From Candidatus Thorarchaeota archaeon (GTDB taxonomy: Archaea > Asgardarchaeota > Thorarchaeia > Thorarchaeales > Thorarchaeaceae), in contig JAWOEX010000010.1 of assembly GCA_046482545.1 (NCBI GenBank), positions 32,001-96,000 on the forward strand: a DNA stretch of 64,000 nt. Reading direction: 5' to 3'. How positions within the stretch are numbered: the stretch's first letter is position 1; every line of letters begins with the position of its first letter. Of the stretch, positions 54,173 to 60,707 are shown piece after piece. The notes below the pieces were generated by a model, which was given only the letters and a program-made list of their open reading frames with translations, did no database searches and had not been told where the DNA came from. Both the position numbers and the translations under genes were made by a program.

Positions 54173-54232
54173 CTGTACCGTTCAGAAGCTCGATACCATC
54201 TTAAGTTGCCGGGTCCACTATGAAATAGGAAA

Positions 54233-55180
54233 ATGCCTTCCAAGATACTTCCTAGCGTCTACCGCATAGAAGGAGAATATGCTGGAGAGTACGGTTATTT
54301 ATCTAGCTATCTGTATATAGCTGATGATGAATGTCTGGTGATTGATCCCCGAACAGCCGGTAGTCCTGGTAAAAAGATACTCAAAGCAATCAAAACCCTT
54401 GGTTTGAAAGCTTCCCGAGATGTCATAGGTATCCTGTGTACCCATGCTCACCCGGATCATGTTGGCGGGGTGAAGATGCTGAAGGAAGAGACCGGTGCTC
54501 CCGTGATTATACATGCAGATGCCGTACCTCTGCTCAGAGAGCCCGGTCTTTTCACAAAGTCCCGCTTAAGGCTAAACCTCTCTGAGCGAATAGCGATGAA
54601 GTTCGAGAGAGGTCCCTTACGAGTTAACTATGATGGCCAAGAAGCAGACAGAATCCTCAATGACAGAGACTTGGTGCATATAGGCAATAGTACACTTCGG
54701 ACGATACTTACTGCTGGCCATTCTGCAGGCCATTGTGCATTCTATGATTCTGATCGCAAGATTCTATTCTGCGGAGACGAAATCACCAACTTTCCAAATA
54801 GCCCTAGAAAATTCTACGTTGACCTGTCGGGAAGCATGATAGCAAAACGATGCGCTCTCGAAAAGATAAAGAAGATGGAAATTGACTATCTCCTTCCTGC
54901 TCATGATATACCTCATCTTTTCGGAGACGTGAGGACGCAGATTGTAGAGTCACTCAGTGGAGTGATAGCTTTCCAAGACTCAGTTCTTGAGCACGTATGC
55001 ATACGGGGAGAAGCAGATATTGAGCAACTCGTATTCGATATTACGAAAGCCAACTCGATACCATATCCCAAGGAGATGAAGGCGCTTCTGCCAACAACAA
55101 TCCTCGTAGCGCTTAGAAGTCTTCAGAAGGCCGGATTGGTCTTTGAGGAAGAAGGCATTTGGATGTCAGAGAATTGCTGA
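54233..55180 (+). CDS. MBL-fold metallo-hydrolase
   Basis: THAHPDHVGG, AGHSAGH, LFCGD, LPAH. Confidence 0.9.
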   Translation: MPSKILPSVYRIEGEYAGEYGYLSSYLYIADDECLVIDPRTAGSPGKKILKAIKTLGLKASRDVIGILCTHAHPDHVGGVKMLKEETGAPVIIHADAVPLLREPGLFTKSRLRLNLSERIAMKFERGPLRVNYDGQEADRILNDRDLVHIGNSTLRTILTAGHSAGHCAFYDSDRKILFCGDEITNFPNSPRKFYVDLSGSMIAKRCALEKIKKMEIDYLLPAHDIPHLFGDVRTQIVESLSGVIAFQDSVLEHVCIRGEADIEQLVFDITKANSIPYPKEMKALLPTTILVALRSLQKAGLVFEEEGIWMSENC

Positions 55181-55269
55181 TAAGATTGCCACCCATTTCA
55201 GCTACGAACAGGTTTGCAATGGAAACCTATATACGGAATAGCTCGGCGCATCGTTGTGGTGGCTAATCC

Positions 55270-56670
55270 TTGACAAAGAGATTTACTCCCTCCGGGGTAA
55301 TGCCCGCACTTGTTACACCATTCACTAGACATGGTGATATACATGAAGAGGGCCTCAAGGAGGTAATAGATTACACTATTGAGAAAGGGTGTACGGGGGT
55401 GGTTCCTGCAGGAACCACCGGTGAATTTGTCTACATGCGAACTGAAGAGAGAAAGAAGTTACTCAAACTGACAGTAGAACATGTGGATGGCCGTGTCCCT
55501 GTGGTAGCTGGAACTGGACAGAACAGCACCCGCGCCACAATCAGCCTTACAAAGTACGCTGCTGATTTGGGCTGTGATGCAGCTCTGGTTGTTTCACCTT
55601 TCTTCTTGCGCCCAGATGATAAAGGGTACTACCAACATTATGCAGATGTAGCAAGAGAAGGGAATCTTCCTGTAATCCTGTATAATATCCCTCAATGTAC
55701 CCTTGGGACCCTACAATCCAACGTCGTTCAGGATTTGGCGGATCTCGACAATATCGTTGGAATCAAGGATAGTGGAGGGGATATCGGTCATACAATGGAA
55801 CTAATACAGAAGGTTAGTGACAGAATCCCTGTCCTGATAGGACATGATGAGTGCTTCCTCTCAGCAGTATCTGCTGGAGCTAGCGCTGCTATTATGGCTT
55901 CAGCAAATATTATGCCACATATCTGGCTGGAAATAATGGAGTGTGTCCAGAACGGAAACTTCGAGAAAGCACGAAAAATGCAACTGGATGCTCAGACGCT
56001 TGCCAGAATAGTCACAAGAAATGGGGGTGCTCCACCTGTGAAGGCTGCCCTCAAAATGATGGGTATTGAAGCGGGATATTCTCGAATGCCACTTGATTCT
56101 GGAGGAACACTTACACGGGAACTGAAGGAAGAAATCAGATTGGAGCTTGAAAAGCTTGGCCTGATAGAAACTCCAACTAGGTCACCACTTCAGGAAAAGC
56201 CTGACGTACGGAAATTAGCTACCGACCTTGGCTTTGAGAATCCCGATTTTGAAGGGTGTAGATTCGCTACAGCGGCGAATGATACAGTCTCGGTGACTGT
56301 TGTTACTGGAAAGAAGAAATCAGCAATTGGAGATTTCTTTGTAAGGCTACTCACCACACCCAAACAGGGCTATGAAGGGCTTACCGTTATTCTAGAGCCA
56401 AATTTGGCGGTAAAACCGAGCTCATTAATGGTTCCTGCCAGAGGAATACAATCCATGCGTCAAGCTTCTCTTTTCTATGGCCCCGTTCAATCCGGTGCTG
56501 CTAAGGCGATAGCAGCCACAGTGGAATCTGGTGCTATAAGCGAAGAGAGAATCGACGACACGTTGATGATTCTAATGCTAGATGTGAACTTGGACTCGCG
56601 TGACCGCAGGAAGATAGTCACAGCCACGGAAGAAGTAGTCGCTGAAGCAATGAGTTCTATTTGGAGCTGA
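55270..56670 (+). CDS. DapA/NAL-family class I aldolase fused to a degenerate Fae domain
   Basis: ALVTPF, GTTGE, YNIP, GIKDS. C-terminal LTVILEPNLAVKP.SL....RQASLFYGPVQSGAAKA matches Fae. Confidence 0.85.
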   Translation: MTKRFTPSGVMPALVTPFTRHGDIHEEGLKEVIDYTIEKGCTGVVPAGTTGEFVYMRTEERKKLLKLTVEHVDGRVPVVAGTGQNSTRATISLTKYAADLGCDAALVVSPFFLRPDDKGYYQHYADVAREGNLPVILYNIPQCTLGTLQSNVVQDLADLDNIVGIKDSGGDIGHTMELIQKVSDRIPVLIGHDECFLSAVSAGASAAIMASANIMPHIWLEIMECVQNGNFEKARKMQLDAQTLARIVTRNGGAPPVKAALKMMGIEAGYSRMPLDSGGTLTRELKEEIRLELEKLGLIETPTRSPLQEKPDVRKLATDLGFENPDFEGCRFATAANDTVSVTVVTGKKKSAIGDFFVRLLTTPKQGYEGLTVILEPNLAVKPSSLMVPARGIQSMRQASLFYGPVQSGAAKAIAATVESGAISEERIDDTLMILMLDVNLDSRDRRKIVTATEEVVAEAMSSIWS

Positions 56671-56674
56671 GAAA

Positions 56675-58150
56675 ATGAGTGATGATTTTAAGTTTCAAGG
56701 TGTCTATCCGGCCCTCGTTACACCTTTTGACGAGGGCGGCGTGAACGCATCGCAGTACAAGGGTTTGATTGAGCATTTGATTGGAAGGGGCGCGACTGGA
56801 ATTGTTCCTTGCGGTACAACCGGTGAGTTTACCAGTATGACTTTTGATGAGCGTTTGCAAGCCATCCGAATCGCATGTGAGACAGCTGCGGGACGCGTAC
56901 CCGTCATGGCTGGTACAGGTGCCCCATACACGGCAGATGCGGTCAAACTCACTCGACGAGCAGCTGAATTGGGAGCGGATGCTGCTCTAGTGGTTACTCC
57001 ATATTTCCTTAAGCCCTCCACAAAGGAAATCTACGAACACTACACGCGAGTAGCTGAGGCCAGTGACCTCCCCATCTTTCTGTACAATATTCCGCAAGTA
57101 ACAGGAATCAAGCTGGACTGGAAACTGGTCGATGGCTTACAAGAAATAGATGGTATTGCTGGCATGAAAGATTCTAGTGGCGATCTGGTTAACCTTACAA
57201 CCATTCTATTGCGACGCCCTCATGATTTTCAGGTTGTTGTAGGCCATGATGAAGTGGCATTTCCTGCTCTTGCGGCGGGTTGTGATGGAGCCATACTCAT
57301 GAGTGCAAATGTCTTTCCTAATCGATACATTCAGATGCAAAGTGCTCTGTCAAGAGGGAATCTCAAAGATGCGAAGATTGTGCAAAGGACGATTCAAAAG
57401 ACTGTACGCCTCCTTGTCAATAAGGGGGGTGCAATCGCAGTCAAAACTGCATTGAATATGATGGGCATAAATGTTGGAGATGCTCGGAAACCTCTTCTCG
57501 AAGGTGATTTGTTTAGTTTTGAGGATCTTGATGAGCTCAGGACATGCTTAGAGGATTTGCAGCTGATTCCAAGAGGACCTGTGACATTCAAGATGGGCAA
57601 TCGGGAAATAGTTGCCGAACAATATCCAAAGGCTGCAGGAATTGTTGCTGATGTTGTTGATGACTTGACACTCCTGCATGGAGAATCTCTGTGCGGTGGT
57701 GGTCATGAGGTCGCCCATGTTGATTTGGTGATGGGTATCAAGACAGGTCCAATGCAACAGGCTTTAGAAACAGCAGATAAGATAGTAAAGGGTTTCCATC
57801 AGTCAAACATTATCAAAAATCTTCAGCCAACAACGGTCTTTGCGCCTACAGTGAATATCACTGATGAAGCCCACAAAGAAATGGTATATGATGTAGCCGA
57901 GAAAGCAGTCGCTGATGCGGTTACCAGAACTGTGACAGATCAAATCATACCCGAGGAACTTGTTCCTGATCTCGTCATTGCGGTTAACGCCTTTGTTCAC
58001 CCTGCTGCTAATAACAAGCGTAGGGTGCACATCAATAATTTCCGCGCTGTTCGGCATGCTCTTAGACGCGCTATTGAAGGACGACCTGATATTTCTACAG
58101 TCATAGAACAGAAGAACTCATCTCGGCATCCTTTTGCCTATGGTCCATAA
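56675..58150 (+). CDS. DapA/NAL-family class I aldolase fused to a Fae domain
   Basis: ALVTPF, GTTGE, YNIP, GMKDS. C-terminal GESL.GGG.EVAHVDLVMG...FVHP.A....NNF.A...A..RA.EG.P......SRHPF matches Fae. Confidence 0.88.
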   Translation: MSDDFKFQGVYPALVTPFDEGGVNASQYKGLIEHLIGRGATGIVPCGTTGEFTSMTFDERLQAIRIACETAAGRVPVMAGTGAPYTADAVKLTRRAAELGADAALVVTPYFLKPSTKEIYEHYTRVAEASDLPIFLYNIPQVTGIKLDWKLVDGLQEIDGIAGMKDSSGDLVNLTTILLRRPHDFQVVVGHDEVAFPALAAGCDGAILMSANVFPNRYIQMQSALSRGNLKDAKIVQRTIQKTVRLLVNKGGAIAVKTALNMMGINVGDARKPLLEGDLFSFEDLDELRTCLEDLQLIPRGPVTFKMGNREIVAEQYPKAAGIVADVVDDLTLLHGESLCGGGHEVAHVDLVMGIKTGPMQQALETADKIVKGFHQSNIIKNLQPTTVFAPTVNITDEAHKEMVYDVAEKAVADAVTRTVTDQIIPEELVPDLVIAVNAFVHPAANNKRRVHINNFRAVRHALRRAIEGRPDISTVIEQKNSSRHPFAYGP

Positions 58151-58263
58151 CGGAAGAACGTCACAGTTATAATGGTGTATGCACAGCCACCTTTGATACT
58201 TCCCAGGTGTGGCACAGCCAATCCTTACGGCAACCAGAGCTGAAAATTCCCCATAATCGGTGT

Positions 58264-58497
58264 ATGAATGTGCATGAAGAATACAAGAAATTGCTCGATA
58301 ATTTAATTCGATCCGTTAGCTCCAATAAGTTGGATGAGTTTATTGAAGATGGGGAAAACATCGTACTGGAAGGCGATTATGGTCGCATATCCTTAACAAG
58401 GAAAGGTGACGAGGTCCGGGCAAAATCTGTGTCTGGTATTGATTCTGAGGGCAGATATAGGCTTGACAAAAGTGTTCTTTCTGACACATCAGATTAA
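58264..58497 (+). CDS. Small hypothetical protein
   Basis: 77-aa ORF from ATG 58264 with protein-like composition, in an otherwise empty gap. Confidence 0.4.
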   Translation: MNVHEEYKKLLDNLIRSVSSNKLDEFIEDGENIVLEGDYGRISLTRKGDEVRAKSVSGIDSEGRYRLDKSVLSDTSD

Positions 58498-58760
58498 GCA
58501 ATTCGTTATGAGTAGGCACCCGAATTCGTATTCTTGACCTATTGTGGTTGAATCACACTGAAAAAAAGGTGTGGCTAAGTCTCAGCCTGCTCTTGGATAA
58601 TCATTGCCTTTCGGCTCATACAGGGGTAATTTGCAACATCATGGACCGCCACAGCCTTTTTTCTCAGATTGCCTTTAAGAACTATTTCTTGTGCTCTCGA
58701 AGGCCACTCCCCCGGATTCACAATGCTAATCAGTTGTTGTTCATCTTCTCTGAGTGATAG

Positions 58761-59900
58761 ATGATGGTTAACGAATCTAGGATTTTAGGCCTTCTAAAAG
58801 AACTAGTAGCGACTAACAGCGAAAATCCGCCCGGTAATGAACGCGGAGTGGCCGAAGTGCTTCGCGATTACCTATCACAGTATGATATTAAGTCAAAAGA
58901 GGTTGGAGATAATGAGGATCGCCCCAATCTTATTTTCTCAACCCATGACGGTGATTTTGGAAATCTCCTAATGCACGGTCACATGGATACCGTACCTGTT
59001 GGCTCTAAGGATAATTGGTCTTACGACCCTTTTGGTGCTAAAGTATCATCAGGGCGTCTCTATGGCCGGGGTGCATGCGATATGAAAGGTCCATTAGCCG
59101 CCTTGGCTGAGACCATGATTCAATACAAAAAGGAGAATCATGAGATGCCATTGGTCATGCTTGCAACTTCGGATGAAGAAGCAGGCTTGCGAGGTGCCCA
59201 ACAAGTATCAGACAGTGGTATACTGGAAGGTATTAAGTGGGGGGTATGTGCCGAACCTACCAGCTTGGGTATTCTCTTAGGCGGAAAAGGCACGTTCTGG
59301 GTGAAACTACGGACAACAGGAAAATCCGCGCACGGTTCGAGACCCCAAGAAGGTATCAATGCTATCTCCCTGTGCATAGAAGCCCTAGAAGCAATCACCG
59401 GTGAGCAATTTGAATATGATGAGTCATTGTTGGGAGCGCCTACTGTTAACATAGGAGTGATTGAAGGTGGTGCGAAAATCAATGTGGTACCTGAGTACTG
59501 TGAAGCCCAAATAGATATGCGCACTGTTGAAGGTCAGACTACTGAATACATCGCCGAATCCATGAAGAGCCGACTGGAAAGCGCGGGTTTGGACGAGTAT
59601 GTCCAAATAGATATCATAGATGCACATCCACCAGTACTGACACCAAAGGATGCGGAGATAGTAATAGCTGCGAAAGAGGCGATAACAGAAATCACTGGAA
59701 CCACCCCCGAATTGGCCACAGCCACCTACGGAACAGACTGTTCAGTTCTTCAGCCCGACGTGGGGATTACTAACGTTATCTGTGGGCCTGGATCAATCGA
59801 GCAAGCGCATCAGCCTGATGAGTATATCGAAATCAAGGAACTTCTGACTTCAGTTGGGGTTTATCTCCAGATCGCTCGCTACTTTGCCAATGTTTACTGA
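58761..59900 (+). CDS. M20 family metallopeptidase/deacylase (ArgE/DapE-like)
   Basis: HGHMDTVP, GRGACDMKG, DEE, AEPT, AHGS.P..G.NAI, GPG...AHQPDE. Confidence 0.92.
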   Translation: MMVNESRILGLLKELVATNSENPPGNERGVAEVLRDYLSQYDIKSKEVGDNEDRPNLIFSTHDGDFGNLLMHGHMDTVPVGSKDNWSYDPFGAKVSSGRLYGRGACDMKGPLAALAETMIQYKKENHEMPLVMLATSDEEAGLRGAQQVSDSGILEGIKWGVCAEPTSLGILLGGKGTFWVKLRTTGKSAHGSRPQEGINAISLCIEALEAITGEQFEYDESLLGAPTVNIGVIEGGAKINVVPEYCEAQIDMRTVEGQTTEYIAESMKSRLESAGLDEYVQIDIIDAHPPVLTPKDAEIVIAAKEAITEITGTTPELATATYGTDCSVLQPDVGITNVICGPGSIEQAHQPDEYIEIKELLTSVGVYLQIARYFANVY

Positions 59901-59921
59901 CCATCAACGTAGCGACTGCCG

Positions 59922-60707
59922 TTAACTCTCGGATGACGCTCTTACAGCAATAAGAGCTGCAATAGCTCCGCCACCAATACCATTCCCAATGTTGACTACA
60001 GCCAAGCCGGGAGCACAGGACTGAAGCATGGAGGCCAAAGCGGTTTCGCCCCTCCCACCATGTCCGTATCCGATAGGCACAGGTACGCCAATAACTGGGA
60101 TATCAACCAGTGAAGCCACTACTGTGGGTAGAGCCCCTTCCATTCCTGCAAATACAACTATTGCATGAACTTGTTCTTCTCTTATTTTCTGGAGCGGTTC
60201 GATAAGTCGGTGAATGCCTGAGACGCCAACATCACGGAATCTCAATACACCCACCCCCATGGTTTCTGCAACAGCTTGGGCTTCTTCTGCAAAGAATTCA
60301 TCGGAAGTCCCTGCTGTGATAATCGCAATCATGCCGCCTGTTCTTTTTGGTATCCATCTGGGATGATGAACTAACAGAGTCATGTGGTTTCCACCCCCTC
60401 TGATATCAAATTCAAAATCCGCGAGATGATTTTCAAGGTACTCTACTTGTTTTTCGTTGACACGGGTGGCAAGTACAAAATCCTTCACTTCGAGCATGGC
60501 TCGGAGAATCTGCATCAGTTGTTCGCTTGTCTTCGTTTCAGCCATAACAACTTCTGGAATGCCGCTCCTGTGTTCACGCCCAGGATCAATTACAGCTAAA
60601 TCTCCAACTTTCTGCAATTCTAGTTTTTGCAATCTCTTTTGAGCTTCATCAACATTGATTTGGCCTGAAGCTAGGGCTTCCAAAACCTCTCGAATTTCTT
60701 GCATCAC
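59922..60707 (-). CDS. larB: Nickel-pincer cofactor biosynthesis protein LarB (PurE-like)
   Basis: D..R..R.G.PEV..E.K, AGTSD..AEEA, DVGV.G.HRL, AGMEGALP, VP.GYG, SCAPG..VVNI.NG. Confidence 0.92.
   Translation of the reverse strand: MMQEIREVLEALASGQINVDEAQKRLQKLELQKVGDLAVIDPGREHRSGIPEVVMAETKTSEQLMQILRAMLEVKDFVLATRVNEKQVEYLENHLADFEFDIRGGGNHMTLLVHHPRWIPKRTGGMIAIITAGTSDEFFAEEAQAVAETMGVGVLRFRDVGVSGIHRLIEPLQKIREEQVHAIVVFAGMEGALPTVVASLVDIPVIGVPVPIGYGHGGRGETALASMLQSCAPGLAVVNIGNGIGGGAIAALIAVRASSES

What the first reader, a model, noticed from the sequence alone, without database searches (positions are those of the whole stretch)
56260..58150. The two Fae domains have decayed in complementary halves, suggesting an obligate hetero-oligomer
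Seen: Fae copy 1 (about 56260-56670) keeps the central L.VI.PNL.VKP..RQA..FYGP.Q.G.A.A segment but lacks the N-terminal GE..G.EVAH.DL motif and the C-terminal HPF. Copy 2 (about 57670-58150) keeps EVAHVDL, FVH and HPF but has lost the PNL..KP and GPAQ segment. Established: Fae is a homopentamer with active sites between adjacent subunits and a conserved catalytic His in AHIDL. Inference: one full active site forms only at the copy1/copy2 interface. Fusing a normally tetrameric aldolase to a normally pentameric Fae also implies a new symmetry or a higher-order assembly.
Basis: partly seen in the sequence, partly recalled or inferred. Interest (0 to 1): 0.8.

Follow-up and report, generated by a model that had tools for sequence, protein, structure and literature searches.

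The report
Split-site aldolase-Fae enzyme gene pair
Two adjacent genes of a Thorarchaeota (Asgard) archaeon each fuse a pyruvate-type aldolase to a formaldehyde-activating (Fae) domain that keeps the key residues the other has lost, so they probably work only together, as one unstudied enzyme linking pyruvate to one-carbon metabolism.

Summary
Gene A (55270-56670) and gene B (56675-58150) are DapA-family aldolase + Fae fusions. A keeps EPNL..KP and YGPVQ but lacks the AHxDL histidine and the HPF tail. B is the reverse.

The same split holds in more than 100 orthologue clusters of each. It is seen in 79 of 87 Thorarchaeia genomes, always one A-type upstream of one B-type. It recurs in about 36 Chloroflexota loci and in a Korarchaeota MAG. 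Related Asgard lineages carry a single fusion with all motifs. This genome has no other Fae and no other DapA-family gene.

"Decay in complementary halves" is too strong. Only about 17 of 47 invariant Fae positions partition reciprocally in both phyla. B's centre is remodelled but constrained, and A has gained new invariant residues.

An obligate A:B hetero-oligomer is the best reading (about 0.55). The key test could not be run: whether the two residue sets lie on opposite sides of the inter-subunit cleft of PDB 1Y60.

New here: holders of the pair lack methanopterin synthesis (Thor 1/30, Chloroflexota 0/5), so the cofactor is probably not H4MPT. Neither protein is DapA (no Arg138, no DapB or DapF). 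Homoserine dehydrogenase is absent.

The scan has reported this pair before in other Thor genomes, with similar verdicts.

The parts
55270..56670 (+). Gene A, 466 aa: class I aldolase (DapA family) fused to an A-type Fae domain
   Evidence: ORF. PF00701 at 265 bits plus PF08714 at 93 bits. Orthologues are 63-85% identical in >100 clusters.
55288..56133 (+). A aldolase barrel (res 7-288). It has GTTGEF 55411-55428, YNIPQCT 55681-55701 (Cys where DHDPS has Arg138), the Schiff-base Lys in GIKDS 55759-55773, and GHDE 55840-55851.
56275..56652 (+). A-type Fae domain (res 336-461). It keeps LEPNLAVKP (56392-56418) and MRQASLFYGPVQSG (56455-56496; Gln407 = Gln88). It lacks His22/Asp24 (TVSVTVVTG, 56284-56310) and Phe119/His121 (LDVNLD, 56578-56595). 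It has no C-terminal arm.
   Evidence: AF2 pLDDT is 91.4, and the TM-score to 1Y5Y is 0.74-0.81 with rmsd 1.5 A.
56660..56677 (+). A/B junction: a GGAG-like stretch in the last codons of A, the TGA stop at 56668-56670, a 4-nt gap, and the B ATG at 56675.
   Evidence: Sequence. The junction is -10 to +36 nt in 16/16 Thor loci. RNA-library contigs bridge it, at 56467-57059 and 56551-56751.
56675..58150 (+). Gene B, 491 aa: class I aldolase fused to a B-type Fae domain
   Evidence: ORF. PF00701 at 249 bits plus PF08714 at 113 bits. Orthologues are 63-98% identical in >100 clusters.
56690..57502 (+). B aldolase barrel (res 6-276). It has GTTGEF 56813-56830, YNIPQVT 57083-57103 (Val where DHDPS has Arg138), the Schiff-base Lys in GMKDS 57161-57175, and GHDE 57242-57253.
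57680..58135 (+). B-type Fae domain (res 336-487). It keeps Glu337, His348 and Asp350 (= Glu11, His22, Asp24; 57680-57736), NAFVHP (57986-58003), INNFRAV (58031-58051) and the RHPF arm (58118-58147). It has the 56-60 loop deleted (IIKNLQPTT, 57809-57835) and YDVAE in place of YGPAQ (57884-57907).
   Evidence: AF2 pLDDT is 89.9, with a floppy C-terminal arm. The TM-score to 1Y60 is 0.80.

Best explanation
A and B are the two subunits of one enzyme.

Origin (inferred from trees). An ancestral single-chain fusion of a non-DapA class I aldolase to a complete Fae domain still exists in Loki-type Asgard archaea and in Bathyarchaeia. It was duplicated long ago, and the pterin site of Fae, which lies between neighbouring subunits, was divided between the copies.
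- B keeps the catalytic side: Glu11, His22, Asp24, Phe119, His121, Asn134 and the C-terminal HPF arm that becomes ordered on the cofactor.
- A keeps the other side: the 52-64 EPNL..KP loop and the Gly85-Pro86-x-Gln88 helix cap.

Predicted assembly (inferred). Only a B:A contact rebuilds a complete cleft. The reverse A:B contact is degenerate, so the homopentameric ring is probably replaced by defined A:B pairs. Both aldolase barrels keep their Schiff-base Lys, Tyr and Thr-Thr, so both are likely active.

Likely chemistry (inferred). The enzyme moves a one-carbon unit between a pterin carrier and the pyruvate enamine, making or cleaving 4-hydroxy-2-oxobutanoate, the keto acid of homoserine. The carrier here is probably tetrahydrofolate, because methanopterin synthesis is missing.

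Shown: the motif partition, the strict co-occurrence, the tight junction, the folds and the genomic context.
Inferred: the physical heteromer, the composite site, the substrate and the cofactor.
For: - Reciprocal motif retention holds in >100 clusters of each type. It is robust across two phyla: A-only L52, P58, G85, P86, A92 (and Q88 in all A-types); B-only E11, A21, H22, G32, V72, A87, V91, F119, N134, A162, H164, P165.
- There is one A-type to one B-type, adjacent and in A-then-B order, in 79/87 Thorarchaeia genomes of 16 genera. Single hits are cut by contig ends, and two genomes lack both genes.
- The same pair and order occur in about 36 Chloroflexota loci. In G296 and G297 the genes are unlinked, yet each genome has exactly one of each type. 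Korarchaeota accessions RLG49790/RLG49791 are consecutive.
- The junction is -10 to +36 nt in 16/16 Thor loci. RNA-library contigs bridge it.
- Single fusions with all five motifs and no paralogue beside them occur in five other Asgard genomes.
- The own genome is 98.9% complete and has only these two Fae domains and only these two DHDPS-family genes.
- Both Fae domains fold confidently as Fae.
- A's retained centre is more constrained than canonical Fae (0.89 against 0.87), while its flanks are relaxed (0.64-0.68).
- Holo 1Y60 chains have 168-169 ordered residues against 158-161 in apo 1Y5Y, so the HPF end becomes ordered with the cofactor.
- Established knowledge, from my memory of the abstract of Acharya et al. 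2005, JBC 280:13712: the cofactor lies in the cleft between two adjacent subunits, His22 is the acid catalyst, and Gln88 flips on binding.
- Trees place all B-types in one clade (96-98) and, in the Fae tree, all A-types in one clade (91).
Against: - No structural mapping was possible. If His22 and Gly85-Pro86/Gln88 line the same cofactor from the same chain in 1Y60, a composite A:B site cannot form.
- Ten of the 47 invariant Fae positions are lost in both Thor copies.
- Complementarity over all conserved positions is not significant (p = 0.065 for Thor, 1.0 for Chloroflexota).
- Most ThorB proteins still have Gln88 (88%), so B may be largely self-sufficient.
- A five-membered ring cannot alternate A and B.
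- Beta-RFAP synthase is absent, so the canonical Fae reaction with H4MPT is unlikely here.
- No binding or activity data exist.
- RNA-library contigs do not prove transcription.
Confidence: 0.55

Rival explanations
1. B is the only working Fae-type subunit. Its pocket has been remodelled for another pterin (deleted 56-60 loop, changed 85-86). A is a pseudo-Fae partner that keeps an active aldolase barrel and serves as a scaffold or regulator. The two may still associate through the aldolase barrels, but no composite Fae site forms.
For: B passes the TIGR03126 cut-off and A does not. B keeps His22, Asp24, Phe119, His121 and the arm, and in 88% of Thor orthologues also Gln88. B's changed centre is itself conserved at 0.82. 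A's N- and C-terminal parts are relaxed. Holders of the pair lack methanopterin synthesis, which could explain a remodelled pocket.
Against: A's central segment (G48-A94) is the most conserved stretch of either domain. It keeps exactly the canonical motifs that B lacks, at 98-100% and in three phyla. That is hard to explain for a mere scaffold. ChlB and the other B-types have lost Gln88, while all A-types keep it.
Confidence: 0.25
2. A and B are two separate homo-oligomeric enzymes with different jobs (neofunctionalised paralogues). They are kept side by side because they act in one pathway, for example on different 2-oxo acids or in successive steps.
For: Both aldolase barrels keep every catalytic residue in both phyla. 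A and B are only about 36% identical. A has new invariant residues: Asp119, Trp146. In two Chloroflexota genomes the genes are unlinked.
Against: Neither domain alone keeps the residues that are invariant in every canonical and single-fusion Fae. No genome was seen with only one type. Overlapping or near-overlapping junctions suggest coupled translation in equal amounts. Lineages with a single gene keep all motifs.
Confidence: 0.15
3. This is plain decay: one or both Fae domains are degenerating remnants on the way to loss.
For: Loss of the catalytic His and the arm in A, a loop deletion in B, and Fae scores of only 80-124 bits against 200-244 bits in other Asgard lineages.
Against: Both domains have been kept at 63-74% identity across 16 Thor genera and in other phyla. 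There are no stops or frameshifts. The AF2 models are confident. Motif conservation is near 100%.
Confidence: 0.02

Closest known systems
Formaldehyde-activating enzyme Fae (Methylorubrum extorquens; PDB 1Y5Y/1Y60; PF08714, TIGR03126)
   Same: The fold is the same (TM-score 0.74-0.85). Taken together, A and B carry most of its invariant residues.
   Different: Fae is a stand-alone homopentamer of about 170 aa, and each chain has all the motifs. Here the motifs are divided between two paralogous chains, each fused behind an aldolase, in an organism without methanopterin synthesis.
Single-chain 'complete' aldolase-Fae fusion of Loki-type Asgard archaea and Bathyarchaeia (e.g. L005:3594-5087, L006:4135-5625, P0117, P0362). 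It is unstudied and is labelled DapA in databases.
   Same: It has the same two-domain architecture, the same aldolase subfamily (no Arg138; invariant Glu193 and Arg245 in B numbering) and the same Fae subclade.
   Different: It is one gene with all five Fae motifs. It occurs in genomes that also have a canonical Fae (probably Fae-Hps) and beta-RFAP synthase.
Archaeal bifunctional Fae-Hps (NF009833)
   Same: An Fae domain is fused to an aldolase-type enzyme that handles formaldehyde, which suggests channelling of a one-carbon unit (family named).
   Different: Its partner is a 3-hexulose-6-phosphate synthase barrel, the Fae domain is N-terminal and complete, and there is no paralogue pair.
Enzyme plus catalytically impaired paralogue heteromers with active sites at subunit contacts (trypanosomatid AdoMetDC/prozyme and the deoxyhypusine synthase pair; from my own knowledge)
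   Same: A duplicated enzyme whose oligomer interface carries the active site becomes an obligate heteromer after reciprocal or one-sided loss of site residues.
   Different: The families and chemistry are unrelated. Here the heteromer is only inferred.
Ketopantoate hydroxymethyltransferase PanB and serine hydroxymethyltransferase (from my own knowledge)
   Same: These catalyse transfer of a pterin-bound methylene unit to or from a carbon next to a carbonyl. This is the chemistry proposed here with pyruvate.
   Different: PanB is a metal-dependent barrel and SHMT is a PLP enzyme. Neither has an Fae domain or a Schiff-base lysine aldolase.
4-hydroxy-tetrahydrodipicolinate synthase DapA (TIGR00674)
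   Same: The barrel, Schiff-base Lys, Tyr133 and Thr44-Thr45 are present, and the HMM score is above the cut-off.
   Different: Arg138 is Cys (A) or Val (B). The genome has no DapB or DapF.

Membership tests
Fae (PF08714 / TIGR03126) | Domain model matched above the curated cut-off | tested here: met
   Pfam: A 93.2 bits and B 113.3 bits against a cut-off of 27. The stricter TIGR03126 equivalog cut-off (118.05) is met only by B (121.8). A scores 85.
Fae (PF08714 / TIGR03126) | Fae fold | tested here: met
   The B model matches 1Y60 with E 1.5e-17 and TM 0.80. The A model matches 1Y5Y with E 1.1e-12, TM 0.74-0.81 and rmsd 1.5 A.
Fae (PF08714 / TIGR03126) | Catalytic His22 in AHIDL (with Asp24) in every chain | tested here: not met
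   B has His348 and Asp350. A has Ser and Thr at these positions. ThorA carries His at this position in 0% of sequences.
Fae (PF08714 / TIGR03126) | EPNL..KP loop and GPAQ (Gln88) in every chain | tested here: not met
   A has both. B has the loop deleted and YDVAE in place of YGPAQ.
Fae (PF08714 / TIGR03126) | C-terminal arm ending in HPF | tested here: not met
   B has RHPF. All A-types end at about position 146-147.
Fae (PF08714 / TIGR03126) | Tetrahydromethanopterin available as substrate | tested here: not met
   Beta-RFAP synthase (TIGR00144), Mtd and Ftr were not found in a 98.9% complete genome. Among Thor genomes, 1/30 have RFAP synthase, against 40/41 in family f21. FolD, SHMT and Mch are present.
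Fae (PF08714 / TIGR03126) | Homopentamer with sites between neighbouring subunits | not testable with these tools
   No multimer prediction and no coordinates were available. The PDB entries hold 10 chains in 2 entries.
DapA / DHDPS (TIGR00674) | HMM above cut-off; Schiff-base Lys161, Tyr133, Thr44 | tested here: met
   Scores are 233.7 and 231.2 against a cut-off of 206.15. The residues are kept at 97-100%.
DapA / DHDPS (TIGR00674) | Arg138, which binds aspartate semialdehyde | tested here: not met
   A reads YNIPQCT and B reads YNIPQVT, against YNVPGRS in B. anthracis DapA. The position is Cys or Val in all fusion groups.
DapA / DHDPS (TIGR00674) | Diaminopimelate pathway present in the genome | tested here: not met
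   No DapB (TIGR00036) and no DapF (PF01678) were found.
Obligate paralogue heteromer with split interface site | The two paralogues always co-occur, one to one | tested here: met
Obligate paralogue heteromer with split interface site | The reciprocal residue sets lie on opposite sides of one interface | not testable with these tools
   This needs 1Y60 coordinates or a multimer model. The paper is not held.
Obligate paralogue heteromer with split interface site | Physical complex; neither subunit active alone | not testable with these tools
   This needs experiments.

The most novel reading that the evidence does not exclude
The A/B pair is the first Fae-family module that works with tetrahydrofolate instead of methanopterin. 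On this reading, when lineages without methanopterin (Thorarchaeia, Chloroflexota) kept the aldolase-Fae enzyme, duplication and division of the inter-subunit pterin site rebuilt the pocket for the other carrier. The result would be a heteromeric, folate-dependent pyruvate hydroxymethyltransferase that makes 4-hydroxy-2-oxobutanoate and so feeds homoserine and threonine synthesis without homoserine dehydrogenase.
Probability: 0.3. Interest if true: 0.85.

Novelty: new variant of a known kind. Interest (0 to 1): 0.62.

Why it matters
If true, this is a clean natural case of a homo-oligomeric enzyme with interface active sites turning into an obligate two-gene heteromer, and it recurs in archaea and bacteria.

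It would also correct a widespread database label. More than 200 protein clusters are called DapA in organisms that have no diaminopimelate pathway.

Finally, it would point to an undescribed link between pyruvate and pterin-bound one-carbon units in abundant sediment and salt-lake microbes. That link may be a natural version of the engineered formaldehyde-to-homoserine route. It may also run on folate, for which no Fae-type enzyme is known.

Tried and rejected
I obtained contexts through the genome search, the fetch from genomes, the search for related loci and cluster accessions instead.
- The Fae structure paper (Acharya 2005) is not held. Five literature searches gave no residue-level description of the cleft and no paper on an aldolase-Fae or DapA-Fae fusion. 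What I say about His22, Gln88 and the cleft therefore rests on my memory of the abstract.
- Structure prediction returns no coordinates and no multimers, so I could not measure which face each residue set lies on.
- Testing complementarity over all 47 invariant positions gave only a trend (p = 0.065) in Thor and nothing in Chloroflexota.
- I looked for a second complementary feature in the aldolase barrels, the trans-acting Tyr107. One partner tends to have Phe, but not the same one in the two phyla (Thor B, Chloroflexota A). I rejected this as evidence.
- Gene neighbours gave no functional clue. The MBL-fold gene upstream is usually 5-6 kb away, and the M20 peptidase downstream is 0.6-5 kb away.
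- In the first aldolase tree two non-Thor pairs grouped by lineage, which hinted at repeated duplication. With more sequences only the Korarchaeota pair still did so.
- RNA-library contigs cover both genes and bridge the junction. They cannot show expression level, and DNA carry-over cannot be excluded.
- No A-B single-chain fusion was seen among the open frames.
Full report
WHAT IS THERE

The region holds two + strand genes 4 nt apart: A (55270-56670, 466 aa) and B (56675-58150, 491 aa). Each has an N-terminal DHDPS/DapA-family barrel and a C-terminal Fae domain.
- A: PF08714 at 93 bits, matching profile positions 9-134 of 159.
- B: PF08714 at 113 bits, matching profile positions 2-158.

Only B passes the stricter TIGR03126 cut-off. 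The only solved relative of the C-terminal domains is M. extorquens Fae, PDB 1Y5Y/1Y60. AlphaFold2 models of both domains are confident (pLDDT 89.9 and 91.4). They superpose on Fae with TM-scores of 0.74-0.85. The last ~15 residues of B are floppy in the monomer.

THE OBSERVATION

- A keeps LEPNLAVKP and FYGPVQ. It lacks the AHxDL histidine and aspartate, lacks Phe119/His121, and stops about 20 residues early, so it has no HPF arm.
- B keeps GE..G..EVAHVDL, FVHP and RHPF. It has a 5-residue deletion of the LEPNL loop, and Glu/Asp-Val replaces Gly85-Pro86.

The split is systematic.

| Motif | B-type clusters | A-type clusters |
|---|---|---|
| AH.DL | 112/120 | 1/120 |
| [YF]GP.Q | 1/120 | 118/120 |
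| terminal HPF | 113/120 | 0/120 |

(All.)

I then scored the 47 positions that are >=90% invariant in canonical Fae plus the single-chain fusions. In Thor, 6 are kept in both copies, 10 only in A, 21 only in B and 10 in neither. That is a trend, not a strong statistical signal (Fisher p = 0.065). In Chloroflexota the same table shows no association (p = 1.0).

What is robust in both phyla is a small reciprocal core.
- A-only: L52, P58, G85, P86, A92, with Q88 kept in every A-type.
- B-only: E11, A21, H22, G32, V72, A87, V91, F119, N134, A162, H164, P165.

'Decay' is also not the right word. B's altered centre is itself conserved (0.82 against 0.87 in canonical Fae). A's centre is the most conserved stretch of all (0.89). 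A has new invariant residues: Asp at position 119 in 99% of sequences, and Trp146 in 100%.

DISTRIBUTION

The genome is a Thorarchaeia (Asgard) assembly, 98.9% complete. It holds no other Fae domain and no other DHDPS-family gene.

Across 87 Thorarchaeia genomes, 79 have Fae matches. Nearly all have exactly two, with the short A-type about 1 kb upstream of the full B-type on the same strand. Genomes with one hit are cut at a contig end. Two good genomes lack both genes. In 16 loci from different genera the A/B junction is -10 to +36 nt, while other neighbours vary.

Outside Thor:
- About 36 of 42 Chloroflexota loci show the same A-then-B pair.
- In the two exceptions the genome still has exactly one A-type and one B-type, on different contigs.
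- A Korarchaeota/Thermoproteota MAG has the two types under consecutive accessions.
- A further lineage has them on contigs of equal length.

Other Asgard families are different. They carry a high-scoring canonical Fae in a ~400-460 aa frame (probably Fae-Hps). Many also carry one ~496 aa aldolase-Fae fusion with all five motifs and no paralogue beside it.

Trees place all fusion aldolase domains apart from stand-alone DapA (support 99-100). They place all B-types in one clade (96-98), next to the complete fusions. In the Fae tree all A-types form one clade (91). This fits one old duplication of a complete fusion. The root, and the Korarchaeota pair that groups by lineage in the aldolase tree, leave some doubt.

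WHAT IT IS NOT

It is not DapA.
- Arg138 is Cys in A and Val in B.
- DapB and DapF are absent.
- The fusion clade has its own invariant Glu193 and Arg245.

It is probably not an H4MPT enzyme either.
- Beta-RFAP synthase, Mtd and Ftr are absent, while FolD, SHMT and Mch are present.
- Among Asgard genomes >=92% complete, RFAP synthase is found in 1/30 Thor genomes, against 40/41, 5/5, 3/3 and 3/3 in families that carry canonical Fae and the complete fusion.
- None of five Chloroflexota holders of the pair has it above the cut-off.

So the split pair goes with the absence of methanopterin. This rests on only two or three independent lineages.

HOW IT MOST LIKELY WORKS

Established knowledge, from my memory of the abstract of Acharya et al. 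2005: Fae binds methylene-H4MPT in the cleft between two adjacent subunits, His22 is the acid catalyst, Gln88 flips on binding, and the C-terminal arm becomes rigid. The tool data agree on the last point. Holo chains have 168-169 ordered residues and apo chains 158-161.

The catalytic side (His22, the arm) is kept only in B. The Gly85-Pro86-x-Gln88 cap and the 52-64 loop are kept only in A. The two always co-occur. Single-gene lineages keep everything. The simplest reading is therefore that one complete cleft forms only where a B domain meets an A domain.

The reverse contact would be degenerate, so a closed five-membered ring seems unlikely. Defined A:B pairs would also fit the two-fold symmetry of the aldolase barrels.

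Both barrels keep all catalytic residues.

The physical complex and the composite site are inferences.

FUNCTION

Earlier reports of this scan on the single fusion propose pyruvate plus a carrier-bound one-carbon unit giving 4-hydroxy-2-oxobutanoate, then homoserine. I checked this in part.
- This genome lacks homoserine dehydrogenase, which is found in 14/14 control genomes, but it has three threonine synthase matches.
- In Thor, 54 of 57 genomes >=85% complete lack it. The one sister-family genome without the pair has it.

This is suggestive, not proof.

EXPRESSION

Salt-lake metatranscriptome libraries from two studies hold contigs >=99% identical over parts of both genes. Two contigs bridge the junction. 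Carry-over of DNA cannot be excluded.

COMPARISON AND NOVELTY

I found no paper on an aldolase-Fae fusion in the held library. The scan itself has reported the same pair in other Thor genomes with similar verdicts, so the core finding is not new to the scan.

- the link to missing methanopterin synthesis;
- the unlinked Chloroflexota pairs;
- the measure of how limited the complementarity is;
- the RNA contigs across the junction.

VERDICT

The best explanation is an obligate A:B enzyme with a divided pterin site (0.55). The main rival is a self-sufficient, remodelled B with a pseudo-Fae partner A (0.25).

Noticed in passing
own genome, whole (G000); threonine synthase matches at C2:55047-56024, C32:4926-5918 and C20:109117-110079: No homoserine dehydrogenase (PF00742) in a 98.9% complete genome, yet three threonine synthase matches above the cut-off. 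One lies about 19 kb downstream of genes A/B, just outside the window. In Thor, 54 of 57 genomes >=85% complete also lack PF00742.
   Followed up: partly
L006:5644-6930 (-), L007:5945-7237 (-), L008:5754-7034 (-), L009:1966-3252 (+): In Loki-type Asgard genomes a 426-430 aa gene with no Pfam match sits directly upstream of the single complete aldolase-Fae fusion, in the same orientation. It may be a partner gene.
   Followed up: no
L005:5711-7114 (-): In genome G088 a DUF4147+MOFRL (glycerate-kinase type) gene lies next to the complete aldolase-Fae fusion, on the opposite strand.
   Followed up: no
window 58761-59900 (+) and 59922-60707 (-): An M20-family peptidase (ArgE/DapE-like) and a LarB-like AIR-carboxylase-fold gene follow genes A/B. 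They are found in 13/16 and 8/16 Thor loci respectively, at variable distance. This looks like synteny rather than an operon.
   Followed up: partly
window 54233-55180 (+): A metallo-beta-lactamase-fold gene lies 90 nt upstream of gene A. In 13 of 16 other Thor loci the same gene is 5.2-6.2 kb upstream, so this genome has lost or moved about 5.5 kb of intervening genes.
   Followed up: no
G015:C115:37364-38317: This is the only Thor genome of 30 with a beta-RFAP synthase match (225 bits). It could be real retention, transfer or bin contamination (5%).
   Followed up: no
P0279, P0289 (Bathyarchaeia, 232-233 aa, on contigs of 155-209 kb): These are stand-alone Fae proteins about 70% identical to the Fae domain of the complete fusion. 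They carry an N-terminal extension of about 65 residues, as if the aldolase barrel had been cut off.
   Followed up: no
   Followed up: no
window 54200-60000: Contigs >=99% identical to this stretch occur in salt-lake metatranscriptome libraries from two or three studies of 2025. This suggests the organism's habitat.
   Followed up: partly
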